Source: an uncultured virus (IMG/VR IMGVR_UViG_3300031813_000007) (taxonomy: Duplodnaviria; Heunggongvirae; Uroviricota; Caudoviricetes). Taken from it: a stretch of 55,345 nt of DNA. Below, piece by piece: positions 171-47,050 of the stretch. Numbering within the stretch: position 1 is the stretch's first letter; each line of letters opens with the position of its first letter. Under the pieces are notes generated by a model. The model saw only the letters and a program-made list of their open reading frames with translations, was not told the DNA's origin and made no database searches. A program made the position numbers and the translations under genes. Where the stretch lies: IMG/VR virus record IMGVR_UViG_3300031813_000007, positions 62,001 through 117,345 of that record. The stretch is one strand, 5' to 3'.

Positions 171-635
171 TTATCCAATCGTGATATCTTCCATACCAGC
201 AGTTCTGAGACGAACAATGTGTCCCAATTGCCACTGCTTAGTATCAATACCTTTCATTATGCCTAACCATTTGTTACGCAACAGAGCGACTTCGTTTATA
301 AGAACTTCCATATCAATAACTTCATCTTCGCCATCCGCGTATTTTTCAGCATCTCTACTGGTCAATGCTCTAGCATATCCTTCAAGATATTTCTTGAAGT
401 GTTTTTTATGTATCTTTTTTAGTTGAATGTTTAGAAAGTTGAGAACCGCTTCAATCTCTTGAAGTTGGTTGAAGCGGAACTCTGTTATACCTGGTAGTTT
501 AGAAATGTTCTTTTCAACATTCCCATATACTTTTACGTCATTCTTGGCTGATAATAACTCATTTTCATAATGAGTAATAAAGTCGGGAAGGACGCTTAAA
601 TCTTGTGTGATTTGGCTATACCAAGACATTACCAA
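171..635 (-). CDS. uvsY: UvsY-like recombination mediator protein
   Basis: Helical protein with ALTSRDAEKYADGE...KGIDTKQWQLGHIVRLRTAG, located next to UvsX; likely start is ATG at 629. Confidence 0.75.
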   Translation of the reverse strand: MVMSWYSQITQDLSVLPDFITHYENELLSAKNDVKVYGNVEKNISKLPGITEFRFNQLQEIEAVLNFLNIQLKKIHKKHFKKYLEGYARALTSRDAEKYADGEDEVIDMEVLINEVALLRNKWLGIMKGIDTKQWQLGHIVRLRTAGMEDITIG

Positions 636-23460: not shown

Positions 23461-25524
23461 TCAACGTGTTTCTTTCATCATATTGGGATCGTTTGGAGAA
23501 AAAGAGCCACGATTTCCGACCGCTGATTTAACCTGATTTGGATTAAAAACTACCCAAACTTCACCAGACTTTGCATTGCTATTGTTCGGTATTGATTCAT
23601 TGATAATAGCACCATCAAAGCCAAGCTTCTGTAAGGTTTTTACAAAGTGGTCACCTTCTGGTCCGTCAAACAGTTCCCAGCGTTCAAACTCATCAACATA
23701 ATAATATATTGACCTCAAGTCAATACCATTGTCTTTAAATCCTTGCACGGTTTCTTCGTTATCTAACATATGTGAAAGATTGTTATCTCTTAGATCAATG
23801 GGATTCTGTACTGAAAGATATACAGGCAAGATTCGTCCACCTGGCTTATATTCACCGGGGTAATCTGGTCTTTCAATGAAGAGTTCAGCAAACTTTGGGT
23901 CAACCGCAAAGAATGATCCATGACGATCTACTTCAAATGTCATACCCAGTGCACTTGCAAATCCCGTTCCATGTGTGTTGAATGTATCAAAGTCTTTAGT
24001 AGTTGCATGGTAGAATACTATTGGCTTATGTCCATCCCATGCGTGAGTATGCTGTAACCAGTCATCCATTCTCTTTTGACGATGTTGCTGATCGTATCCT
24101 GGGAAGAGTTCTTGTTGTTCTTCTGCTTCCGATAACATTCTTGACAACTGCTGAATGAAACTTTCAGCTATCTTACCGTTTGGATTAGCTTGGGGAGGGA
24201 TACCTGCTCGTGAAACTTTAGACCCAAGCCTTTTTGCATTGTCTTTAATGGAATCTGGTTTCACATCTACAGTAAGAGCAGTCTTAAAACGAGGATCGTT
24301 CTTTTCTTTTGCAGATGGAATGTAACCTGAGGCTTCATCAATATACGGAAGACGAACATTCTTGTATTGTTCTGGATCATATGGTTTGATTTCTGCTGGT
24401 TTCTTAGGCTTTGGACCTCTCCAACCGCGTTCCCATGCTGCTGCACCCTTTCGTGCTGCTATATTAACGTCCTCACCGCGATACTTTGCTGATCTGACAA
24501 AGTGATCAATCACTTGCTGCTTAGTGGTATAGGCTTCGTCAAGTTCTTCATCCTCAGCAAAGATACCACGCTTGAAGCGTTCCCATTCACCTTTCATTGC
24601 AGCAGCAGCCATTTGCTTTTCATACGCTGCTTTAGCTAACTTAGCCTTGAATGGATCAACGGGCTGTTGCTGACCAATTTCTTCTGGTTTGATATTATAC
24701 TGCTTCATCATTTTATCAATGATTCGCTTTATACTTTCAATCTCAGATGGAGTTCTTCCGGCAGTGTTTTGTAGCTTTTTGATCTTTAGTAGAGCATCAT
24801 CGCGAGTACCTGCTTCTTCAATGCTTAATGCTTGACTATGCAGCTTGTCGCTTAGATCATAAAGTTTATCAATGCCACCTTGTGTTCTAATAGCCTTATA
24901 GGCAAGATTTTCTGGACTGAACTCGCCGCCTTTTGACAGTCCTGCTTTACGGTAGCGTTTGATCAGACCGATAACATCATCTATTCTTTTTACACTTTTG
25001 GTCTTTAGTGCAAGATCAATCAAATCTGACAATTTATTGTATTTTGCTTGGGTTGCATTCTGATCAAAGTTGGCTTTACGTTTAACTGGATGCCTAATCC
25101 ATTTGTTATGAAGAATACTATATTCACCAAGCGATACTACAGGAAGATTAGAATCCTGAACATACACTTCAATCGGAACTCCATGAACTGTGATATCATG
25201 TGAGTCGTTGTATAGGGTTTTCTTTGCGTTGAACAGTTCCTGATAAACTTCATTGTCAGGAAGTTTGGACATGTCTACAATGATGTGAAGATCAAGGTCA
25301 CTGTGTGGAGTATATGAATAGGCAGCGTTTGAACCTGATATTCTCACATCTTCTACGTTGACATCTTTGATGCCAAGCGCCGAAATGAAGTCTTCTGCTA
25401 TATCTAACAGCGCATTTCTAACGTCTGGATCAAGCTTGTTGTTTACCCATAGCTTTGGGTTAAGTTCATCATGAAACTTAACAGCGTCAGATAATTTAAA
25501 TGAATGAAGTTCTTTAATGTCCAT
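23461..25524 (-). CDS. polyvalent protein: nucleotidyltransferase plus C-terminal ADP-ribosyltransferase-like domain
   Basis: ISGSNAAYSYTPHSDLDLH...IEVYVQD (Pol-beta NTase); FYHAT...SFFA...PVYLSVQNP...GFDGAII...EVWVVFNPNQVKSA (ART fold); late motif upstream. Confidence 0.75.
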   Translation of the reverse strand: MDIKELHSFKLSDAVKFHDELNPKLWVNNKLDPDVRNALLDIAEDFISALGIKDVNVEDVRISGSNAAYSYTPHSDLDLHIIVDMSKLPDNEVYQELFNAKKTLYNDSHDITVHGVPIEVYVQDSNLPVVSLGEYSILHNKWIRHPVKRKANFDQNATQAKYNKLSDLIDLALKTKSVKRIDDVIGLIKRYRKAGLSKGGEFSPENLAYKAIRTQGGIDKLYDLSDKLHSQALSIEEAGTRDDALLKIKKLQNTAGRTPSEIESIKRIIDKMMKQYNIKPEEIGQQQPVDPFKAKLAKAAYEKQMAAAAMKGEWERFKRGIFAEDEELDEAYTTKQQVIDHFVRSAKYRGEDVNIAARKGAAAWERGWRGPKPKKPAEIKPYDPEQYKNVRLPYIDEASGYIPSAKEKNDPRFKTALTVDVKPDSIKDNAKRLGSKVSRAGIPPQANPNGKIAESFIQQLSRMLSEAEEQQELFPGYDQQHRQKRMDDWLQHTHAWDGHKPIVFYHATTKDFDTFNTHGTGFASALGMTFEVDRHGSFFAVDPKFAELFIERPDYPGEYKPGGRILPVYLSVQNPIDLRDNNLSHMLDNEETVQGFKDNGIDLRSIYYYVDEFERWELFDGPEGDHFVKTLQKLGFDGAIINESIPNNSNAKSGEVWVVFNPNQVKSAVGNRGSFSPNDPNMMKETR

Positions 25525-25538
25525 ACAAGTATTTATTG

Positions 25539-25931
25539 TTATGGACGAGCGTTTCTCAATCTTGTAGCAACGTTCTTTGATTTTTTAGGATTTGGAGGAT
25601 TACCAAAACCAAGCTCATCATGACCGAATATACCATCTAATACTATGTAAGTTGGATTTCTCCCAGACACTTCATATATAATACTAAAGTTATGCGTTAA
25701 GTGGGCTTTTCTTGCCTTTGGTAAAATAGTATCAAATGGAGTTCCACTTACCATAGGTTTATCGTTAGCCCCATATGACTGAATGGGGTTATCTGCTTTA
25801 GTTTTAAGAAAGTCTTTTAGTTTATCCCGAACAGAAGGATTACTAGCAGCAGCACTTGCTAAACTGCTATTAAACAGATCACCATACCTAAAAATGACTT
25901 CTGATGTTGCAGGCTTATTATTTTTGGACAT
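25539..25931 (-). CDS. RelE/YafQ-like ribonuclease toxin
   Basis: DKPM...RKAHLTHNFSIIYE...LDGIFGHDELG resembles the YafQ RxCH...LIY...GSHSEL pattern. Confidence 0.55.
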   Translation of the reverse strand: MSKNNKPATSEVIFRYGDLFNSSLASAAASNPSVRDKLKDFLKTKADNPIQSYGANDKPMVSGTPFDTILPKARKAHLTHNFSIIYEVSGRNPTYIVLDGIFGHDELGFGNPPNPKKSKNVATRLRNARP

Positions 25932-26106
25932 TTACTACCCTATCAACATGCTCAAGCAACTGGTCAATCGTGGCTTCCTGAAAGGAACCACGGCGACCCT
26001 TGATCACATTCACAAGGTCTTCGGTAAGAATGTCGGTATTGTTTTCGGCATCAATAGCCTCAAAGAGAGCCTGTTCGCTGGGTTGGGTAACTTCGGTGAT
26101 CTTCAT
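25918..26106 (-). CDS. small acidic protein, putative antitoxin
   Basis: 62 aa, upstream of and overlapping the toxin-like gene; SFQEATIDQLL tail; MKITEV N-terminus. Confidence 0.45.
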   Translation of the reverse strand: MKITEVTQPSEQALFEAIDAENNTDILTEDLVNVIKGRRGSFQEATIDQLLEHVDRVVNVQK

Positions 26107-26147
26107 GGTATTATTTATCCTTGAAAAAGATATTTGACGTTGGCCTA

Positions 26148-26669
26148 TTAAATCGTCAGACCCAACATGTCAAGACCTTTTTTATGGAAACATTTGGTAT
26201 TCTCAATCGCTTCTTCTGTACTCAATGCGGCGAAACCCTTAGAATGCATTTCTTCATCCGGTAGAATTTTGGAAAACACCTCACGAATGTCTTCGTCAAT
26301 CTCATTGTCTGCGGCCAATGCACGAATGCGAACAAGACGCATTGCTTCGGCATGATGACCTGCTGCGGTTACTTCTTCAAAAGTCTGGACATTTCCTAGG
26401 ATTTCACTCCAATAACGGTCATGTTCATATGTTGGGGTTGGCAGTTCAATGTTACGAGCGGCGAGAAGTTCTCCTACCCAGTCGCGGTGCTTAGCTTCAT
26501 CAGAAGCAATCTTTTCCAAAAGTACTTTGCCTTTTCCTTCTGTCGTTTTGGCGAGTGATTCAATTCGTTCTGCGGCAAGAGCTTCACCGATATATTGACG
26601 CTGCAACCAGTGATTAAGCTTTTCAGGAGATGCTTTTACCTCGTTGAGCCACTGTTCGGTAGTTTTCAT
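26148..26669 (-). CDS. ferritin-like di-iron protein
   Basis: GEALA, DEAKH, AEAM, DEEMH carboxylate/His pairs; AGGAG SD before ATG 26669. Confidence 0.8.
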   Translation of the reverse strand: MKTTEQWLNEVKASPEKLNHWLQRQYIGEALAAERIESLAKTTEGKGKVLLEKIASDEAKHRDWVGELLAARNIELPTPTYEHDRYWSEILGNVQTFEEVTAAGHHAEAMRLVRIRALAADNEIDEDIREVFSKILPDEEMHSKGFAALSTEEAIENTKCFHKKGLDMLGLTI

Positions 26670-26689
26670 GATTAATCTCCTATGTAAAG

Positions 26690-26994
26690 TGGCCCGTTCT
26701 GTTTCTAGGTGGAGCCGTACCCAGGAAATCATGCCGCTAGGGCAATATCCATAGTTGAGTTATCGTTTGCAGATAATTCTATTTAGTCTATAATGCGACT
26801 AACCAACCAGTCTACTCTCACCTTCAACTCGTAGTCGAATCCTAAATACGCCCCCATCAACTACTCTGAATCGCTGTGTTTCCGCCAGACAGCTTTTCAC
26901 CCTTTATAGCGGCGGGTTATCAGAGTAGATGGTGGAGGCGAGGGGAGTCGCACCCCTGTCCTACGCAGCATTCAGTTTGTATCAACAACTGATA
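26690..26994 (-). ncRNA. ssrA: two-piece (circularly permuted) tmRNA
   Basis: Acceptor piece ending GGACAGGGGTGCGACTCCCCTCGCCTCCACCA (3' end 26930) precedes the coding piece starting GGGGGCGTATTTAGGATTCGAC (26855). 7-bp acceptor stem with G3-U. Tag 26770-26729 reads ANDNSTMDIALAA*. Outer ends approximate. Confidence 0.93.
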
Positions 26995-26999
26995 ACTTA

Positions 27000-27028
27000 C
27001 TTATACACTATTCACAGAAACATGTCAA
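27000..27028 (-). promoter_or_regulatory. sigma70 promoter of tmRNA
   Basis: TTGACA-17 bp-TATAAG. Confidence 0.8.
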
Positions 27029-27249
27029 GAAATAACTTGAACCATGTAGTTTTTAGATTTTTCCTCAAACTCTGCTCGTTTGCGATCCATATCAATCTTG
27101 CGAAGGAGCAAAGGATCGTTGGGCTTGATCACATATCTGTTTTTTTCAAGAACAGCCCGAAGACGTTTTTGATCATCCGTGAAAGTTTCACGGTCGCTGT
27201 TTATTTTTCTAGCCATTAAAGTTGTCCTTTGAACCACAATATTTAACAT
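27025..27249 (-). CDS. hypothetical protein
   Basis: Basic small ORF; probable start MARKINS. Confidence 0.5.
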   Translation of the reverse strand: MLNIVVQRTTLMARKINSDRETFTDDQKRLRAVLEKNRYVIKPNDPLLLRKIDMDRKRAEFEEKSKNYMVQVIS

Positions 27250-27258
27250 TACCCATCG

Positions 27259-28383
27259 TTAGTCTCTATCAAGTCCCACATACTCATGAGAAAAGCAAAC
27301 ACGCTTGATGTGCTTATCTTTATGGTTCTTTTCCTTGACGGCGCGGTTGGTTATATAATCTTTTCTACCCTTACCGTTCTTTGACGTTCCTCTCCACCGT
27401 GGGGAAGAGTTTCTGTATTCACCCAAACGTGGATGTGCAGTTTTAGAAAAAAACCTACAACCTCTTGCTAAGAAGATTTCACCAATCGCATCACTTAAAC
27501 GGGTTCCAAATCCAAGACCCTGATACTCTGGTAGAATAACGGTTCTATGACCTCTCCATGCATTCTTGAAGTTGCCATTTGGAAATGGAAGAGCAGCAGA
27601 AAATCCTACTATTTCACCATCCCAAATAGCTAACCAGCATTGTGCAGTTCTATTAAGGTTTCCGTCAAGATAGTGATGGTGGCGGAAGATTGGCCAAACT
27701 TCGGTTGAACAAGGTATGATTTCCAGTTTGATTTCAGGTCTTGGCCGAAGTGACCCCCTTCCGGTCATCTGACCGGTCATAGTGTCATATACCCAATCGG
27801 GCTGTAACCATTCAATCACATCATAATGGCATGTTGCGAGAACAATGTTCTTTAGGTTATGTTTGTCAACATATCTACGAATGGCAACAGAACACGATTT
27901 AGCTACATTCCTGTCAATAACAGATGTGAACTCATCAAATACCATACCTGACACCAATGACCTTGCGAGATTAGCGCGAAACTGTTCTCCATTTGAAAGA
28001 ACATGATATGGCCTGAGCCAAGATGGAATGGTGTTTAATCCCACAGCAGACAGTCGTTCTGCAGCTTGATCTGCCGATTCAAAGTGTGAGCAGATTGCTT
28101 TAGTTTCATCCCATTCAGGTTGTTCAGTAGAACCAAACGATTTCAGCAGAGATGACTTACCTGATCCAGATGGACCAACAATCAACCCGATACCATAATC
28201 TTCCGGAATACTTGGAACATTTGGAACAGTAAATGTGGTAGTCCCGTTGAACTCATAGTCAAACATAGATGATACTGCTTTAGTGATATCATCTTGAAAT
28301 ACAGATACCGATATATCTCTACTCGGTATCTTATCGTTCTCAAACTCAAATAGAGATGCTATACTATCGTGCATATTATTCAT
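27259..28383 (-). CDS. ABC-type ATPase fused to GNAT acetyltransferase
   Basis: GPSGSGKS, LSNGEQFR signature, FDEFTS; C-terminal HHYL...RTVILPEYQGLGFG acetyl-CoA motif. Confidence 0.85.
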   Translation of the reverse strand: MNNMHDSIASLFEFENDKIPSRDISVSVFQDDITKAVSSMFDYEFNGTTTFTVPNVPSIPEDYGIGLIVGPSGSGKSSLLKSFGSTEQPEWDETKAICSHFESADQAAERLSAVGLNTIPSWLRPYHVLSNGEQFRANLARSLVSGMVFDEFTSVIDRNVAKSCSVAIRRYVDKHNLKNIVLATCHYDVIEWLQPDWVYDTMTGQMTGRGSLRPRPEIKLEIIPCSTEVWPIFRHHHYLDGNLNRTAQCWLAIWDGEIVGFSAALPFPNGNFKNAWRGHRTVILPEYQGLGFGTRLSDAIGEIFLARGCRFFSKTAHPRLGEYRNSSPRWRGTSKNGKGRKDYITNRAVKEKNHKDKHIKRVCFSHEYVGLDRD

Positions 28384-28726
28384 CTGCTATTTCAAACAGG
28401 TCCCCATATGGGTTCTGTTCTTTTTCGTATTGCTCTTTTGCATTCTGAATACGTGCTTGTGAAATCTTGATATAATCTGGATCAAGATCAATGCCAATAT
28501 AGTTGAAGCCTTCAAGCATCGCAGCCTTACCTGTTGAACCAGAACCATTGAATGGATCAAGAACAGTCCCACCCTTTGGTGTTACTAAACGACACAGATA
28601 CTTCATCAAGTCAGTTGGTTTTACCGCCTACGTGGGGTGAGTATTTAAATACTCACCCCGAACCTCCTTTACATATATCTTCAACTCATTTGGTAGCGAG
28701 TCGAAGTCTTTCTTTGATAATTCCAT
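28376..28726 (-). CDS. DNA methyltransferase C-terminal (SAM-binding) fragment with in-frame TAG at 28630-28628
   Basis: Frame reads MELSKKDFDSLPNELKIYVKEVRGEYLNTHPT*AVKPTDLMKYLCRLVTPKGGTVLDPFNGSGSTG...GIDLD. Confidence 0.75.
28634..28659. repeat. perfect 26-bp palindrome
   Basis: GGGGTGAGTATTTAAATACTCACCCC. Confidence 0.95.
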
Positions 28727-29459
28727 TGTTATTTTTCATTTCCTCTATGACTTCATGCTCCCAGAATCTCAAAACAGTAAATCCACATTTCCTCAAATAT
28801 GCATCTTGTGATTTGTCTAAGTTCATTCTTTTTTGCTGCCTAAGGTCCGGAATTCCATTTTTCAATTTTGATGGATGTCCGTGCCAGTAATCACCATCCC
28901 ATTGAATGATGATTTTTTTATCCGGTATTAGAACGTCAACTGATATTTTGTCTGCTATTAGTATTTGTTCTTCAAATATAATATCCTCGTTCAATAATAT
29001 CTGCCTTCCGAGTAACTCTAATTTGTTTGGTCCTTTTTTTCTATTCTGTGCCATGTTTCCATTAGTAGATGCTCTCCTGATCCATTCTTCATCTGTATTT
29101 CTGCATTCTATGGTGCAGTAAGTTGGGTTATTATCTTTCAGTCGGCTTTTACTCCAATAGAAAGTATTATGACACATTTTACATTCAAATGCAACTTTAT
29201 TTTTTGCCTGAAAATCATTAGCACACTTATGACTGCAGAAATGATTAGCATGTGCCTCTAATGTCGCCAGACTCCTATACACTTGATTACCACACATAGC
29301 ACATTCAACGATTCGTCCAGTTTTTCTTTGTGGTTTAGGGCTGGTCCTGCTACAATATGCACTGCAATATTGCCTATTTGCTGGCATATCTGCAGTATGA
29401 GGTTTTCCGCATCCCTTACATATTATCGTTCTCGTTTTATATTTGTTTTTTCTGTACAT
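28686..29459 (-). mobile_element. zinc-finger plus Vsr/DUF559-like endonuclease inserted in the methyltransferase gene
   Basis: Three CxxC...(Y/F)C(S/T)xxC repeats; PNKLE, FEEQ, VDVL, QWDGDYWH, D...GFTVLRFWEHE; TATAAATA at 29487-29494 and GGAG SD. Confidence 0.85.
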
Positions 29460-31992
29460 TTAATACTCCATTACTTTCGTTTGAAGTATTTATATGTTTT
29501 TTGATTTTTTCAATAATATCTGGTGGCGTATTTTCATCAATCAGATAACGCGAAACTTTATCCAATCCGCTGTTACGATCTGATCTGCTGGCTTTAGCAG
29601 CATAATACATTCTCTGAACATTCTCATAATCCAGTGTGTCTTCCTCTGTGAATTCACAAGACTTAAAAAATCTTGCTGCTGATCCTGTGTCGCCTCGTTT
29701 CGCTGATGGAACTCTTTGATATTCACCATAACAGTTGGTATTATCATCTCCTGTATGTGATGGTTCTGTTCCCTTTACATCGCCTTGTTGACCCTTACTT
29801 TCAGGAAACAATGCGACAACTTCATCACTGCCATCATGAATGATATTAGCGGGGAATCTTCCTTTTAGTTCTGGTCGGTCAAACTCAGTTCTAGGTCTAT
29901 GATCAGATTTTCTATAGTAACAGTTTGTGCAAATATCTTGATCTTCTTCTACTGGATTTAGTGTATCAGGAGCATAATCATCGCATCCCATATATTCCGA
30001 AGAGCCAGCAAGTGATCCTGACTTCGCCGTGCATTTTCCTTGCGGCGTTGCACTTAGCTTATCCTCTTCCGACATATAATCAACCCGACAATCATCAATA
30101 TTGATTCCACCAGTTCCATGCTTTAGAACATTCTTCGCTACAGTCTTTTCAGATAGTGGCTTCCTAGCAACGCAAATAGGCTCCCACGCTGGCTTCAGTG
30201 CCGTGCCCCAGCCATCCCATTGTTTTGCTTCTTCTGTTGCTGGTGCAGTAACGTCCCAAGTTTCATAAACAGTTGTTCCACCAACAGTTGGCAATGCGGA
30301 TTTTCCACTAGTGCTTCTAGCTTTAATCTGCTGACCAATTACCCTTCGTTCAATATTATTATAAATGCCGGTCAATCTTTCAGAAGTTTCTTCATCCGGA
30401 TTGAGCACTTCCTTCATGCGTTTCCATTTTTCCTGTGGTGGCAACAAATTAACCCATGGGTCAAACTTTTTTCCATCTGCTGGTAGTGTTAGATAGTTAC
30501 TTGCTCTGAACCCACACTCAGTGTCAATCTGCTTTCGCGTTTTCCCACTTTTTTTAAATATATTAGTCAGGATATTCTTTAGTTCAATTACTTCTTCATC
30601 ATCGGCAGGATTTTCCATATGCTTATCAATAGCCTTACCGATGTTCATAGACTTAGGAAAGCCAGAGTTTCCAGTAGTGAATGCTTTACCATCCCTTACT
30701 GCGACGAATGCGCCAGTAGGAACCTTAACACACCAAATCTTACCTTCATATTCAATCGGAGTTACAGTTGCCAGAGTGGTTTTATGTCCTTTCCAGCCTC
30801 GTATAACTTGTGATCCGAGTTGTTGGCAAATAACATCAGATTCTCCGCCCGATTGTCCAATGGATCGTGGTTTATATGATGCACTACTTCCGTGCGAGTA
30901 AGCATTCTGTTTAAATGCTTCGCTACTATTAGACGGTGCTCCATGACATACCCGTCTCTCCTCGCCATAGGCAGGAAGTCCACTGGACAACGAACATACT
31001 TCGCTCCTTTGTAGTTTCCATGTGAGCGACGGTATGTTACTCCACCCTTCCAAGCAGGGTTGGTTTCTCCAGTCATGCGGTCCACCAAATCTTGTTCCGA
31101 CTTCTCGGACCAGTTGGCTCTCCCCTTGTGTGCGTGAGCTTTCCATTCTATTCCCCGCAAAACTCCGTTGCATGTTTTTGAACACACAGGAGTTTTCACT
31201 CGTTGTAAATGTTTTATATTTCTGTAGAACGTTATCCCACATACTTGACAAGTATGTTGTTGTTTTCCAATATGTTCGTTTATAGGTGGCGATCCAGTAT
31301 TGGAACGACCTATTGACTTGTTGGAACATTGTTTGCTGCAAGTTTTGTTTCTTATAGCCTGTTCTTTGGTATGAGTCTGATAAGGATTGTTGCAAACCAG
31401 ACAGGTTTTCCAAAAAGGGTATATTCTCTTGCGAACTAAGTTCTTCTGCAAAAGCGAATATTTCTCTTCCGCCTCGTTCAACAATGCAACGATGGTTTCG
31501 GCTGACGATTTGGTCTGTATGATCAGATTGTATTCTGTAAGCGGTATCCTTGATGTCATATTCATAAACTTCCTCAACTGGCATATAACTATATGTTTGA
31601 GTATATTTATCATAACACAAGACTAAATCGTTTGGTTTTATTGCTGTGTATGGTTTTATGCCGTTTGGCGTCACAATCTCTGTGTCATCAGATAGACAGC
31701 CATAGACCCACCCAATCTGATCGCGAATATCAAATCCAGCGTCTTCAATCGCTACCACCATTCTATGATATGTGCGAGTACCAGAGAATGCCAACAGGTG
31801 TCCGCCTGGCTTCAATACACGCATCACCTCTGACCACATCTCAACACTATATGCGATGCCAGAACTGTCCCACGACTTACCCATGAAACCAAGTTCATAT
31901 GGCGGATCAGTTACCACAGAATCAACAGAGTTTTCTTCCATGGTTTTTAATACGTCAACACAGTTGCCGTTATGTAATACAAAGCTACTCAT
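29437..31992 (-). CDS. N4/N6 DNA methyltransferase N-terminal part, intein-containing
   Basis: VTDPPY, RVLKPGG, DQIGWVYG|intein|SGFPKS, WDGWGTALKPAWEPI, GRFPAN, GSAARFF, YAAKAS. Confidence 0.9.
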   Translation of the reverse strand: MSSFVLHNGNCVDVLKTMEENSVDSVVTDPPYELGFMGKSWDSSGIAYSVEMWSEVMRVLKPGGHLLAFSGTRTYHRMVVAIEDAGFDIRDQIGWVYGCLSDDTEIVTPNGIKPYTAIKPNDLVLCYDKYTQTYSYMPVEEVYEYDIKDTAYRIQSDHTDQIVSRNHRCIVERGGREIFAFAEELSSQENIPFLENLSGLQQSLSDSYQRTGYKKQNLQQTMFQQVNRSFQYWIATYKRTYWKTTTYLSSMWDNVLQKYKTFTTSENSCVFKNMQRSFAGNRMESSRTQGESQLVREVGTRFGGPHDWRNQPCLEGWSNIPSLTWKLQRSEVCSLSSGLPAYGEERRVCHGAPSNSSEAFKQNAYSHGSSASYKPRSIGQSGGESDVICQQLGSQVIRGWKGHKTTLATVTPIEYEGKIWCVKVPTGAFVAVRDGKAFTTGNSGFPKSMNIGKAIDKHMENPADDEEVIELKNILTNIFKKSGKTRKQIDTECGFRASNYLTLPADGKKFDPWVNLLPPQEKWKRMKEVLNPDEETSERLTGIYNNIERRVIGQQIKARSTSGKSALPTVGGTTVYETWDVTAPATEEAKQWDGWGTALKPAWEPICVARKPLSEKTVAKNVLKHGTGGINIDDCRVDYMSEEDKLSATPQGKCTAKSGSLAGSSEYMGCDDYAPDTLNPVEEDQDICTNCYYRKSDHRPRTEFDRPELKGRFPANIIHDGSDEVVALFPESKGQQGDVKGTEPSHTGDDNTNCYGEYQRVPSAKRGDTGSAARFFKSCEFTEEDTLDYENVQRMYYAAKASRSDRNSGLDKVSRYLIDENTPPDIIEKIKKHINTSNESNGVLNVQKKQI
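30667..31698 (-). mobile_element. intein (344 aa, Cys99-Asn442)
   Basis: Block A CLSDDTEIVTPNG, block B VSRNHR, blocks F/G YEGKIWCVKVPTGAFVAVRDGKAFTTGN followed by Ser; removal restores WVYG-SGFPKS. Confidence 0.92.
30762..31565 (-). CDS. zinc-finger HNH endonuclease nested in an alternative frame inside the intein
   Basis: CLVC...CSKQC, CQVC...CSKTC, GETNPAWKGG, GYVMEHRLIV...EVVHHINHDPLDNRAENL; GAGG SD before ATG 31565; ATAAATA at 31604-31610; ORF is open from 31613. Confidence 0.85.
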   Translation of the reverse strand: MNMTSRIPLTEYNLIIQTKSSAETIVALLNEAEEKYSLLQKNLVRKRIYPFWKTCLVCNNPYQTHTKEQAIRNKTCSKQCSNKSIGRSNTGSPPINEHIGKQQHTCQVCGITFYRNIKHLQRVKTPVCSKTCNGVLRGIEWKAHAHKGRANWSEKSEQDLVDRMTGETNPAWKGGVTYRRSHGNYKGAKYVRCPVDFLPMARRDGYVMEHRLIVAKHLNRMLTRTEVVHHINHDPLDNRAENLMLFANNSDHKLYEAGKDIKPLWQL

Positions 31993-32046
31993 GAAATCAT
32001 CATTCCTTATAGATGGATGTAATATAGCGCAATATGGAGTTAATGT

Positions 32047-32520
32047 CTATTGTTTTGGGCAAACCGATGAGGTTGACATAAGATACCAGCCATCTTTGAA
32101 CTCACTGCTTATGCTAAAGCCCAACTTTGTATAAAAGTCAGGAATATCAGTGGATAAAACCACCTCTTGCCCTTTTGCCTTGCTAAAATATATAGCTTCT
32201 CTGGTTATTCGTTTTGCTATTCCTTGGCCTCTATGGGATTCGGCAACTGCAACCCACGATAGGGCAAAGAAATGTTGAATAGCTAACATGTTCAGTGCAG
32301 CGAAACCAACAAGCTCCTCGCCATCTTCTACGAGGATATAATACTTGGTTGCATTCTGCAGCGAAACCAAAAAGTCAATCTGTTCTAACTTGATCTTTTT
32401 CTGTTTCGGGTCTTGTATTAAAATAGCATCATCTACATGAAAGAATGGATAACATTGATACAGTAATCCAGTTACCTTTTCAATGTTATCCAGTTCTTCA
32501 ACTATTCTTAGTCGGATCAT
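32047..32520 (-). CDS. GNAT family acetyltransferase
   Basis: VAVAESHRGQGIAK, FYTKLGF. Confidence 0.85.
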   Translation of the reverse strand: MIRLRIVEELDNIEKVTGLLYQCYPFFHVDDAILIQDPKQKKIKLEQIDFLVSLQNATKYYILVEDGEELVGFAALNMLAIQHFFALSWVAVAESHRGQGIAKRITREAIYFSKAKGQEVVLSTDIPDFYTKLGFSISSEFKDGWYLMSTSSVCPKQ

Positions 32521-32831
32521 TCGCCGTAGCAAATGGTCTGACGAGTTACAAAGTTATTATACTGATCGTAAGTATCACGGACTTCACATGTGCCACGGAA
32601 ATGATCGTAGTAGCGATATGCAATAATCGTATGATACACTGGATAAGTAGGTGCAACTACTACCGTGTGTGGCTGAGTTGATTCAACGATGACACCACCG
32701 ATGATTCCCCCAATAACCAAAGGAGCAACCCATCTTCCTCCACCACCATGCCAGTGACCGGGGCGAGCGTCCGCCATTGCTGGTGCAGTTAGAAGTGCCA
32801 ATCCCGCTAATGCTGATACAAGTTTCTTCAT
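32517..32831 (-). CDS. small secreted/membrane Gly-rich protein
   Basis: Signal peptide, HWHGGGGRW, glycine-zipper IGGIIGG; TTGACA-17-TATATT upstream. Confidence 0.65.
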   Translation of the reverse strand: MKKLVSALAGLALLTAPAMADARPGHWHGGGGRWVAPLVIGGIIGGVIVESTQPHTVVVAPTYPVYHTIIAYRYYDHFRGTCEVRDTYDQYNNFVTRQTICYGE

Positions 32832-32891
32832 AGTTTTTCTCCTTACTTGCTAATATATTTACTTTTTGATCAAATGTCAAGAGTTAATGTG

Positions 32892-35800
32892 TTAAAGTTG
32901 CTCAAAACGCTCACGAAGCCATGCCCATTCGTAACTTAGCTTCAGCTTATCAAACTCACCGTTTACATCGTCATAGTATTCATCAGCGTCTAATGCACCC
33001 TTGATACTATATTCCGAGAACTCCCCTTGACCCTTGTTTAACCATGCTTCCAGCCTTTCTCGCGAAATGTCAGTATCATCAGCCTTTAGCTTCAACACTT
33101 CACGAAATGCCGTTCTCCACGTGGAGAATGGATCGGTATTGTACTGTGCAATACCTGATAGCAGTGGCACTACTTCATGTTCATCATCCAACGTAAAGTC
33201 AAGCCCATTTCCTACATTAGCTAATGTAAGTTTCTTATTGTAACAAATGAGGCCCTGGTGGCCGTATATCAAACCATTTACTGGATTTTTGGCATGGAAA
33301 ATATAATGCTTCGGAACCTGCATTCTATCTGGTTGCCAGTTGAAGTCAAACTTTAAACTGACTTTCAGCTTAGCAAATACAGTAAAGCACCATGGAGTGT
33401 CACTTGCCTCAACGGCGGCATGATACGCGGCTACACGACCATTTACACCATCAACTCTAACAACACGATTCTTCAAGTTTTTGGTTGCTTGAAGTAGATG
33501 TTCCCAGTTTTCTTCTGCACCAGTTTCACCATTGCTCAAATATACAATGTCCAGTGGCCTTGACATCGCAAGTTTAGGTGCACGTTTGATGTAAGGATAG
33601 TCATACAGTTCCTTCTTAACGTGATCCTTTACTTCCTTGGGAACAGTGATTCGGGTTGCGCCCGTGCTGGTGATAATGATATTCTTGTTCTCTGGTGCCC
33701 ACAAGCACATAGGCTCAACATCTTGAACATTGACGCTAGCATTATCTTCCGTAATGATGGTAGCATATGGAAAACCATCAACCTTTTTAATGGCATTAAC
33801 ATGCGTATCATCGCTTGTAACGATGATTGGCTCCGGAAGTCTATTGGTCTTGATGGTCCCATTGTAGTTTACCTTATGGTAATCTTCCAACACTTGCATA
33901 TCGTCAATGATTTCACGAGTCTTGTTTACGTCAATAAAAAATGTATCGCCAAACTTAAGCTTACCGCTCGGGAAGACATGAAGATGATCACGAGCAAATG
34001 GATCAACCGTATATGAGAAATCAAAGTTGGAATAATCACATACGCTACTGCATATCCAAAGATAATGCTCTTTCTTCTGATGCTGCCTAGAGATAATATT
34101 TCTCAACGTGTTAAGATAGCTTTCGTCATACGGAATAGTGGTTACATGTTTTCCGCTTGCTTTGCTTTTTAATAGTTCAACTACCTTTTCCGTTTCTTTA
34201 TTACCATGATCAATAACCACAATGTCATGGACACACTGTGTTGCAGTTGCACGAATGTTCTTGACAAAGTTGAGGTTACTTAGATGCTCAATGATCTTAA
34301 TCCACTTGGTATCTTCGCCAAATGTCTCACGGTTAACCAAGAATGTGCTACCCCAATGTGACCACTGAGTTCCGAACACATGGACCATTTTCATCTGCCA
34401 TGGGTTAGGATAATATTCAAAGTCAAAATTGGTGTAATCCAGTTCTGAGTTTAGTACCCAAAACAGATCGGTAGTAGATCGGTTGGAACACCGATTTATA
34501 GTATCAACCCAAGAGTTAAGATAACGTGTCTTTTGTATGTTAGGGTACTTTGCCTTTAACTCGTCAAATCTTGCAAGAGACTCTGGGTTGCCCTTATCAA
34601 CATAGAACATATCAGACTTTTTGAATAACTTAAACAATGTTTTGTCATCAAGCTTTTCATCAACTACCCAATTGATTTCTCTGTGGCCCTTTAACCACAT
34701 ATTGGCATTGATCAAGTATGTCTGTGTCAACTCACTGTCAGATGATCCAAATGCATGAACATACTCTGCTTGTTCAATGGTCGGTCTCCATGAGAAATCA
34801 AAATCAGTGTAATCAAGATCAGAATTTAGTGCCCAAAAAATCTCACCATGGTGTTCTTCAACAAGATCACTCAGAGTGGTCTTAACGTAATACCGAGGGT
34901 AATCAGAAACCACATTCTCATCAATACTAAGCCATTCCATTTTAACGATTTCACCGTTTGTATTTGGCGAAACATATCGTGGACCATCTTCTGGATTTTC
35001 AATGGTTCCAAACTGATAGATATATGGAGGAGACAACTCATCAGGATGCCATGAAAAGTCAAACGTGTCAACATTTATTCCATCAGGAATGACCCAGTTT
35101 TCTTTTGATGGAAGACGCATTGCCGTTGGATTCCCAACATAAAAGTTATCTGTTGCGCCCGGAACAATATACATTGGACCACCGGTTTTCTGATGCTGAG
35201 TACCGAAGATGTAGATATATGGATCATTGGTATCATCAGGATGCCATGAATAATCAAAATCTCCGATTACTGTTGGATCGGTAATGGTCCATTTAGACTT
35301 GTCTGGTTTACGAATGGCTTTAATGATACGAGTATCAATATACTTTAACGGAGAACTTTCTGTTGCACCCGGAGCAATATATCTTGGACCGCCTGTCTTT
35401 TGCCACTGAGTTCCGAACTGATAGATATATGGCTGATCGTCCAAATATGGATGCCAAGAGAAATCAAATGCATCAACATCAATCTCATCGGGATTGTATT
35501 CCCAGTTGTCTCTATTAGGAAGCACTTTGGCAGTTTGACATTCTTCATACTTGACTGCGACACCACCCGGAACAGTATATGTAGGACCACCAGTCAATGC
35601 CCACTGTGTAGGGAACTGATAGATATAGGGTGGTGCAGTATCATCAGGATGCCAAGAAAAGTCAAAACCTTCCATGTCCACATTATCCGGAATGGTCCAG
35701 TTTTTCATGCTTGGATGACGAATGGCTTTCACATCATCAACATATTTTACTTCAGTGGCATTAGGCATTACATAACGTGGACCGCCTGTCTTCTGCCACT

Positions 35801-39513: not shown

Positions 39514-39553
39514 CCGATAAATATCATATGATATTTAACGAAACATTTATTCA

Positions 39554-46962: not shown

Positions 46963-47050
46963 GAAAATATTTATAGTCCCTGTTGGTGTGTAATAAATTT
47001 TATCTGATATTCCATTATACCATGGTATAATGCGCCGCGTTATTTAATAC

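What the first reader, a model, noticed from the sequence alone, without database searches (positions are those of the whole stretch)
28607..28670. In-frame ACG-TAG-GCG inside the HPT-VKP motif after a perfect palindrome: candidate ribosomal stop-hop
Seen: the frame reads N-T-H-P-T(ACG)-TAG-GCG-V-K-P-T-D-L-M, whereas this methylase family has HPTVKP, so exactly six extra nucleotides are present. Directly 5' are a perfect 26-bp palindrome and a full SD (AAAGGAGGT). Known: peptidyl-tRNA can hop over a stop to a matching codon, and T4 gene 60 bypassing uses a take-off codon, UAG and RNA structure. Inference: tRNA-Thr leaving ACG could re-pair at GCG (first-position G-U) and resume at GTA, restoring HPTVKP exactly. 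Alternatives: reinitiation at TTG/ATG 28609/28606 using AGGCGGT as SD (the palindrome also has TAAATA on both strands), a pseudogene, or an assembly error.
Basis: partly seen in the sequence, partly recalled or inferred. Interest (0 to 1): 0.75.

Follow-up and report, generated by a model that had tools for sequence, protein, structure and literature searches.

The report
Ribosome stop-hop in phage methylases
A selfish DNA-cutting gene has inserted into this phage's DNA-methylase gene and left a stop codon plus a few extra bases inside a conserved motif, and the same break recurs in many phages with a sequence pattern suggesting that ribosomes hop over it, something known from very few natural genes and not yet tested here at the bench.

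Summary
In detail: ACG-TAG-GCG sits between HPT and VKP, behind a perfect hairpin and a Shine-Dalgarno (SD) sequence, and contigs of three runs carry it unchanged. Pattern scans gave 90 distinct methylase genes (50 clusters) broken at the same place by a stop-led gap of 5-9 nt, 58 of 90 out of frame. The last triplet of the gap is R-Y-N in 88 of 90, the set a tRNA-Thr can re-pair with by G·U wobble. Its third base follows the take-off codon in 81 of 90. The hairpin shows compensatory changes. Best reading: a programmed mini-bypass, forming the right end of a 948-nt DUF559 nuclease cassette that split the methylase and added tails to both halves. It works like the T4 MobA/gene 60 element but is not a member of it. 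It also occurs in cultured mycobacteriophages (Harley, Fishburne), so it can be tested. No protein or RNA evidence exists. Ten literature searches found no description. This scan noted an apparently same-kind element on another genome (e1-5962504).

The parts
29437..31992 (-). N-terminal ORF (851 aa) of a beta-class N6/N4 DNA methyltransferase, with the catalytic DPPY at residue 29; ends in a cassette-derived tail
   Evidence: PF01555 E 8e-10; collinear in blocks with intact sisters L002/L005/L048; DPPY position
30667..31698 (-). Intein-like insertion in the methylase frame (CLSDDT...FTTGN/S), absent from sister L002; a separate element from the hop
   Evidence: the intein reading is from terminal motifs (recalled), no Pfam intein hit
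30762..31613 (-). HNH_3 nuclease ORF lying out of frame inside that insertion
   Evidence: PF13392 E 1e-6
29440..29572 (-). C-terminal extension added to the N-half by the cassette (YLIDENTPPDIIEKIKKHI-type tail)
   Evidence: homology with L048 stops at 29573; similar tails in the 20 split loci where one could be located
29460..29494 (-). TATAAATA late-promoter-like box and a hairpin covering the GGAG SD of the nuclease gene
   Evidence: T4-type late control is recalled, not tested
28686..29459 (-). DUF559 (Vsr-like) zinc-finger endonuclease, 257 aa, the putative homing nuclease
   Evidence: PF04480 E 8e-8; relatives in or beside methylase genes
28631..28726 (-). Middle ORF (32 codons, MELSKK...NTHPT): N-terminal extension plus the His-Pro-Thr of the SAM-binding motif, overlapping the nuclease 3' end
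   Evidence: its own SD is weak here (15 nt from the ATG) but clear in many relatives
28663..28670 (-). Internal Shine-Dalgarno AAAGGAGG, 3 nt 5' of the stem
   Evidence: GGAGG/AGGAG in 22 of 25 elements from SD-unbiased scans versus 2 of 42 intact control clusters; seen in all three codon frames
28634..28659 (-). 11-bp RNA hairpin whose 3' arm ends on the base before the take-off codon
   Evidence: stem median 10 bp in 50 cluster representatives versus 3 bp in 42 controls; 130 of 164 Watson-Crick pairs beyond the anchor versus shuffled mean 67, max 91
28631..28633 (-). Take-off codon ACG (Thr)
28625..28630 (-). 6-nt coding gap: TAG, then landing triplet GCG
   Evidence: homology with intact sister L002 (96% nt) resumes exactly at 28624
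28376..28624 (-). C-terminal methylase piece from the resume codon GTA (VKPTDLM...DPFNGSG..., 82 aa), with the SAM-binding motif
   Evidence: PF01555 E 1e-14; 100% identical over 68 columns to intact L002; matches solved beta-class MTases

Best explanation
A programmed short translational bypass (stop-hop) that belongs to a mobile homing-nuclease cassette. The cassette (window 29572-28625) split the methylase between its YxxKAS segment and the HPTVKP motif, added tails to both halves, and brought its own copy of N-T-H-P-T followed by a stop and a landing triplet. Ribosomes start at the middle ORF (ATG 28726) and reach ACG with TAG in the A site. Termination is slow. The stem just 5' re-forms as mRNA leaves the ribosome and, helped by the SD, pushes the ribosome forward; peptidyl-tRNA-Thr lets go of ACG, re-pairs at GCG (first-position G·U) and decoding resumes at GTA. 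The product is a 114-aa subunit with HPTVKP and the FxGxG motif, which pairs with the N-half carrying DPPY. The likely purpose is to put foreign bases in the nuclease's conserved target without changing the protein. SHOWN: the sequence, its conservation, the landing rule, stem covariation, SD enrichment, cassette limits, nuclease association. INFERRED: that the hop happens, the driving role of stem and SD, assembly of the halves, self-protection. Efficiency is unknown.
For: 90 distinct elements in 50 clusters with gaps of 5, 6, 7, 8, 9 nt (26, 25, 25, 7, 7) and all three stops. In a scan that required neither stop nor SD, 20 of 21 methylase elements begin the gap with a stop, against 2 of 23 chance matches. 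Landing R-Y-N in 32 of 33 cluster representatives with gaps of 6 nt or more; departures from AC in the 64 such gaps are A>G 37, C>T 9, other 1. Third base class of take-off and landing agrees in 46 of 50 representatives (Fisher p 3e-8). U after the stop in 2 of 50 versus 14 of 47 at the same genes' natural stops (p 7e-4); that U makes a strong terminator is recalled. Downstream piece kept: pN/pS 0.19 in 16 close pairs, motif I pattern in 81 of 90. The His of HPT aligns with H168 of M1.HpyAVI, which contacts AdoMet; H168A weakens binding about tenfold (PMC5173035 passages). Nuclease within 1.4 kb upstream in 41 of 55 hop loci versus 3 of 39 intact controls. Same overall design as the MobA element, whose bypass insert blocks self-nicking (10.1101/2022.08.31.505936 section 12).
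Against: No protein, ribosome or RNA data. Only 14 of 90 landings match the take-off exactly and 39 of 90 are Thr codons; 2 break the rule (ACC>AAT L105, ACC>TCC L483) and 9 of 90 disagree at the third base. The tree-based test of third-base covariation is underpowered: 4 independent pairs on well-supported branches, on average 2.8 same way, 0 opposite, median p 0.25. Wobble-compatible changes are also transitions, so decay of a duplicated codon would lean the same way, though 46:1 is extreme. SD-to-stem distance (0-14 nt where resolved) does not track gap length (rho 0.17, p 0.26), so the SD's role is unclear. 9 of 50 representatives gave a perfect stem of 6 bp or less. 14 of 55 hop loci have no detected nuclease, and L086, L035 and L054 have a nuclease with intact HPTVKP; the nuclease profiles were built from hop loci. 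L663 has the stem and a 2-nt gap without a stop. The pN/pS pairs were chosen at 78% or more protein identity, which lowers pN.
Confidence: 0.83

Rival explanations
1. Separate initiation of the C-terminal piece (TTG/ATG 28609/28606 here, the Val codon, or an SD-led GTG in the stem), giving a three-piece enzyme.
For: Annotators of Harley, Ksquared, Fishburne and Malithi call the pieces as separate genes. An SD-led start in the downstream frame exists in 17 of 90 elements, 15 of them with 7-nt gaps. The gene is already split once.
Against: No such start in 73 of 90, including this window, where the TAG is in frame. 0 of 71 have an SD before the VKPxxLM Met; the Val codon is GTG in only 32 of 90 and GTA here. 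It leaves the landing-triplet rule and the retained VKP codons unexplained.
Confidence: 0.06
2. The gap is removed at the RNA level (micro-excision or an RNA-polymerase jump between near-repeats) and the mRNA reads HPTVKP or HP-x-VKP.
For: Take-off and landing form an imperfect 3-nt repeat and a stable hairpin abuts the site. R-Y-N codons give T, A, I, M or V, which the position might tolerate. No RNA run was available to exclude it.
Against: A transcript ending in AC would meet A·C and C·A mismatches on the template of GC or AT landings, which are 49 of 90, whereas an anticodon meets G·U wobbles (inference). No Rfam intron match in 24000-34000, only tmRNA. I know of no splicing of 5-9 nt in bacteria (recalled).
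Confidence: 0.04
3. Stop-codon readthrough gives HPT-x-A-VKP.
For: In this window the gap is in frame; 32 of 90 gaps are 6 or 9 nt.
Against: 58 of 90 gaps are out of frame; all three stops are used; TAG ends 4 of 55 long ORFs of the window, so it is a normal stop; no suppressor tRNA in the 117-kb contig held (incomplete genome); two extra residues would sit in the SAM-binding motif.
Confidence: 0.03
4. The methylase is dead: the gap is an inactivating scar of nuclease invasion.
For: This copy carries several insertions relative to L002; activity was not tested.
Against: Compensatory stem pairs, SD in three frames, landing rule, stop-context bias and conserved downstream frames across phages and genomes of at least four phyla all need ongoing selection on expression.
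Confidence: 0.04

Closest known systems
T4-like MobA element / gene 60 50-nt bypass (Manning and Atkins, 10.1101/2022.08.31.505936; passages and section 12 read)
   Same: A free-standing nuclease splits a conserved gene, adds a C-terminal tail to ORF1 and an N-terminal tail to ORF2, then a stop-led gap that tRNA re-pairing would cross. The same decay series is seen: nuclease lost with the gap kept (Harley), gap absent with the split kept (L086), secondary fusion (L441, L117), nuclease family swapped (DUF559, HNH_3, HNH).
   Different: [quoted passage not shown]
Streptomyces phage phiHau3 terminase bypasses (PMC10732093, passages read)
   Same: Short gap in a phage gene with a proposed 5' stem-loop and flanking SD; bypass supported there by mass spectrometry of a UAA variant in E. 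coli.
   Different: Hungry UUA codon and 10-nt gaps, a few genes, proposed life-cycle sensor, no nuclease mentioned in the passages read; here true stops, variable 5-9 nt gaps, at least 90 elements.
Synthetic 'stop-hops' of Weiss et al. 1987 as described in PMC5009743 (passages read)
   Same: [quoted passage not shown]
   Different: Seen in constructs; that 2016 review states that no natural in-frame stop hopping is known. Here it would be natural, with stimulators.
Invaded actinophage methylases: intein, ShiLan hidden HNH, second endonuclease (PMC9957025, PMC11855218; term searches read)
   Same: Same enzyme family and some of the same phages (ShiLan itself carries the break); out-of-frame HNH genes also precede many unsplit hop genes.
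   Different: Those inserts keep the frame open; 'bypass' and 'frameshift' occur 0 times in both main texts.

Membership tests
Beta-class N6/N4 DNA methyltransferase (PF01555) | DPPY in the N-part; HPTxKP and FxGxG in the C-part | tested here: met
   met only when the pieces are taken together
MobA/gene 60 element | Nuclease inserted in an ORF, adding tails to both halves | tested here: met
MobA/gene 60 element | Host gene is the topoisomerase large subunit; nuclease is HNH MobA (or its replacements) | tested here: not met
   host is a methylase; nuclease is DUF559
MobA/gene 60 element | Stop or hungry codon right after take-off | tested here: met
   20 of 21 in the stop-unbiased scan
MobA/gene 60 element | About 50-nt gap with matched Gly take-off and landing codons | tested here: not met
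   5-9 nt, Thr take-off, exact match in 14 of 90; scans required a Thr codon and gaps of at most 12-23 nt
MobA/gene 60 element | Take-off codon inside the 5' side of a stem; mini-SD about 6 nt before landing | tested here: not met
   stem ends before take-off; SD mostly 26-41 nt upstream
MobA/gene 60 element | Nascent-peptide signal | tested here: inconclusive
   split elements share a PxxLxxYF tail; unsplit elements lack it
MobA/gene 60 element | Insert protects against the element's own nuclease; homing in mixed infection | not testable with these tools
   only association (41 of 55 vs 3 of 39) and a cassette edge at the gap
Programmed translational bypass (mechanism) | One protein made across the gap from an unspliced mRNA | not testable with these tools
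   no RNA holder listed; no proteomics
Programmed translational bypass (mechanism) | Landing triplet can pair with the take-off tRNA, in any frame | tested here: met
   R-Y-N in 88 of 90; 58 of 90 gaps out of frame
phiHau3-type bypass | 5' stem-loop plus internal SD | tested here: met
   spacing could not be compared, the figure and supplement were not seen
phiHau3-type bypass | UUA hungry codon, 10-nt gap, terminase | tested here: not met
Self-splicing intron | Ribozyme core around the insert; exons that join into an intact frame | tested here: not met
   no Rfam intron hit; the upstream ORF holds no HPT to be joined to VKP

The most novel reading that the evidence does not exclude
A portable mini-bypass module of about 50 nt (SD, 10-bp stem, Thr codon, weak stop, wobble landing triplet) drives efficient ribosome hops of 5-9 nt without a nascent-peptide signal. 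It would be a natural in-frame stop-hop of the kind a 2016 review calls unknown, and a larger set of programmed bypasses than the dozens reported for gene 60. Unrelated nucleases reuse it as a general way to shield their target inside the most conserved motif of a host enzyme, and it may also tie phage methylase output to release-factor activity.
Probability: 0.5. Interest if true: 0.9.

Novelty: new variant of a known kind. Interest (0 to 1): 0.8.

Why it matters
Programmed bypassing is known from T4-type gene 60, phiHau3 terminase and Magnusiomyces mitochondria (10.1101/2024.12.09.627546 introduction). PMC5009743 says shorter counterparts were long presumed and that no natural in-frame stop hop was known. 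This family supplies at least 90 natural variants of one small element, which amounts to a ready mutagenesis of take-off, gap and landing. It bears directly on the open proposal that mRNA pairing on exit from the ribosome drives forward sliding. It is present in sequenced, cultured mycobacteriophages with cassette-positive (Fishburne, Malithi), nuclease-lost (Harley, Ksquared) and empty (BigNuz) alleles on one harmless host. It also suggests that many phage methylase 'fragments' in annotations are one recoded protein.

Tried and rejected
Assembly error: rejected. No RNA holder listed, so nothing on expression. Exact-TAG pattern scan: 4 loci, 3 chance and 1 identical to the window; the family appeared only through nuclease relatives and looser patterns. 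Link with the nearby tmRNA: rejected, since sisters with intact methylases share that DNA. Other SD-stem-stop sites in the 117-kb contig: 69 stem-stop matches, 6 with an SD-like word; only this one had an evident gene context and the others were not followed. Constant SD-to-landing spacing: not supported. Tree of 68 columns: poorly resolved (12 of 131 branches starred); 12 changes between broken and intact on the best tree but only 2 forced, so one origin is not excluded. Search with the 32-aa middle piece in cultured phages gave only E 7 helicase matches; plasmids gave one 34-nt chance match. A search for methylome data on these mycobacteriophages found none. PMC4351075 raises a hop only as one option for an unrelated cytosine-C5 methylase pair and a tape-measure gene. 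PMC13732428 had nothing relevant. Supplements of the bioRxiv papers and of PMC10732093 were not seen.

Full report
OBSERVATION. The window is part of a large phage (IMG/VR locus L001, on a 360-kb contig, matches it). On the minus strand the frame reads MELSKK...EYLNTHPT (28726-28631), TAG, GCG, then VKPTDLM...DPFNGSG (28624-28376). A perfect 26-nt palindrome ends on the base before ACG, and AAAGGAGG lies 3 nt before it; the region folds at z -3.47. Contigs of X1, X16 and X17 span the site with no difference; X1 and X16 may be the source sample, X17 is another study. Of the 80 closest relatives of the C-terminal piece, 79 have no insert.

SURROUNDINGS. The methylase (PF01555) is in pieces: an 851-aa N-ORF with DPPY, a DUF559 nuclease gene (28686-29459), the 32-codon middle ORF and the 82-codon C-piece. 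Sister phages give the cassette limits: homology with L048 ends at 29573, and homology with L002 (96% nt) resumes exactly at the Val codon, 28624. So 948 nt holding an N-half tail, the nuclease, a C-half tail, SD, stem, a private copy of NTHPT, the stop and GCG came in as a unit. The C-piece is identical over 68 columns to intact L002, which points to recent gain or loss.

FAMILY. Of 12 viral loci with nuclease relatives, L087 reads ACG-TAA-GCG, L089/L090 ACG-TGA-ATG, L088 ACC-TAG-G-GCC, L086 has nuclease and tails but plain HPTVKP without SD or stem, and the rest lie elsewhere in or beside other genes. Those whose downstream frame scored 20 bits or more against a profile of intact C-domains collapse to 90 distinct elements (59 metagenome, 26 viral, 5 genome); the rest scored 18 or less and were dropped as chance. 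They form 50 clusters at 80% identity of the upstream 36 nt. All scans required His-Pro-Thr and Val-Lys-Pro codons; the metagenome scan also required GGAGG and a gap of at most 12 nt. The five genome hits lie in records titled as Chloroflexota, Bacillota, Actinomycetota and Cyanobacteriota. In cultured phages 85 of 160 matching records (RefSeq and GenBank duplicates included) cover the Harley element; Harley, Ksquared and Malithi read ACC-TAG-A-GCC, Fishburne ACC-TAA-T-GCC, BigNuz is intact. Their annotators list the pieces as separate genes.

WHAT THE FAMILY SHOWS. Gaps are 5-9 nt; 58 of 90 shift the frame. Stops: TGA 61, TAG 15, TAA 14; TGG was allowed and never seen. With neither stop nor SD required, 20 of 21 elements start the gap with a stop (chance matches 2 of 23); L663 has a 2-nt gap without one. 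The triplet before Val is R-Y-N in 88 of 90: 63 of 64 where all three bases are free, 32 of 33 by cluster. The third base agrees in class with the take-off codon in 81 of 90, 46 of 50 by cluster (p 3e-8). On a weak tree only 4 independent pairs were usable (2.8 same way, 0 opposite, p 0.25), so relatedness is not fully controlled. A perfect stem ending at the Thr codon has median 10 bp against 3 bp in 42 intact clusters; beyond the five-base anchor, 130 of 164 positions are Watson-Crick pairs of mixed types against a shuffled maximum of 91 (41 of 50 clusters could be anchored). The SD is present in 22 of 25 elements found without asking for it, against 2 of 42 controls, and falls in all three frames. 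U follows the stop in 2 of 50 elements, against 14 of 47 natural stops of the same genes. Downstream frames stay conserved (pN/pS 0.19 in 16 pairs chosen for similarity).

MECHANISM. A tRNA-Thr anticodon can pair with A or G at codon position 1 and C or U at position 2, which is the observed set; the third base follows the usual split between ACY and ACR readers (established decoding rules, recalled). Frame independence excludes readthrough as the general mechanism, and the start-site tests exclude reinitiation for 73 of 90. The stem cannot fully form while the ribosome sits on the take-off codon, because its 3' arm would be inside the mRNA channel; zipping it up would push the ribosome forward, as proposed for the gene 60 stems (10.1101/2024.12.09.627546, abstract and first part of the introduction). 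This step is inference. So is the SD's role: its distance does not track gap length. The joint matters because the His of HPT aligns with M1.HpyAVI H168, an AdoMet contact (PMC5173035 passages).

WHY IT EXISTS. A nuclease lies within 1.4 kb upstream in 41 of 55 hop loci with enough flank (one hit weak), against 3 of 39 intact controls; the profiles came from hop loci. Split genes mostly carry DUF559 in sense or antisense (29 of 33 have a nuclease); unsplit genes carry out-of-frame HNH genes (12 of 21). In the MobA element the bypass insert is what blocks self-nicking, tails are added to both halves, and nucleases are lost or swapped while the bypass stays (10.1101/2022.08.31.505936 passages and section 12). 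The methylase elements repeat this design with different parts. Against a strict link: L086, L035 and L054 have a nuclease and no gap, and 14 hop loci have no detected nuclease. The tails are fused in one frame in L441 and L117, which fits their forming one small domain; binding was not tested.

NOVELTY. It works like MobA/gene 60 but fails its membership tests (host gene, gap, tRNA, stem and SD position). In signals it is closest to phiHau3 (PMC10732093 passages), in layout to synthetic stop-hops, of which PMC5009743 knew no natural in-frame case. Ten searches of the held library found no description of this break; two papers on this methylase family do not contain 'bypass' or 'frameshift'. 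Subscription journals and the supplements of these papers were not seen. This scan has noted an apparently same-kind element on another genome (e1-5962504) and stop-led gaps at the DPPY motif (e1-5410433, e1-6000740); these are unchecked notes, found after my reading was formed, and not counted as support.

VERDICT. Real, conserved and very likely a programmed ribosome hop (0.83), unproven at the bench. New variant of a known kind; interest 0.8.

Noticed in passing
window 30667-31698 and 30762-31613 (-): An intein-like insert in the methylase keeps the methylase frame open while encoding an HNH_3 nuclease in another frame; absent from sister L002. Resembles the ShiLan hidden HNH but has intein-like ends.
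   Followed up: partly
window 26638-27022 (-): Permuted (two-piece, alphaproteobacterial-type) tmRNA gene with tag ANDNSTMDIALAA; hints at an alphaproteobacterial host; shared with sisters that have intact methylases.
   Followed up: partly
window 29460-29494 (-): TATAAATA box inside a hairpin that covers the nuclease gene's SD, like late control of T4 homing nucleases (recalled).
   Followed up: no
window 30255-30622 and 29863-30080 (-): Two more in-frame methylase segments that differ from sister L002; the first looks like a helix-turn-helix-type insert also swapped in L002.
   Followed up: no
L663, element near 422-471 (-): Stem and SD-like word retained but the gap is only 2 nt with no stop (ACC-CT-GTC): lost stop, a -1 shift site, or an error.
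   Followed up: no
L086:4001-4850: DUF559 cassette with both tails but intact HPTVKP and no SD or stem: split kept, gap absent.
   Followed up: partly
L441 and L117, upstream of HPT: The two tails stand fused in one reading frame with the nuclease gone, and the gap is kept.
   Followed up: partly
L091:3850-4780: A relative of the nuclease sits at the very end of another methylase, flanked by a near-duplicate of the C-terminal peptide (QLSSDDF..LI).
   Followed up: no
L674:1723-2511 and L676:1723-2511 (Fishburne gp58, Malithi gp54): Annotated as plus-strand hypothetical proteins, but the DUF559 nuclease homologue is on the opposite strand: probable mis-annotation.
   Followed up: partly
window 39518-39537 and 47013-47032: Two perfect 20-nt palindromes between genes; the first contains TAAATA on both strands.
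   Followed up: no
L105 group and L127, L384, L399 and others: A clade of gap-bearing methylases has a lengthened, altered motif I region (RRLLVPFSGSGSE) instead of VLDPFxGSG.
   Followed up: no
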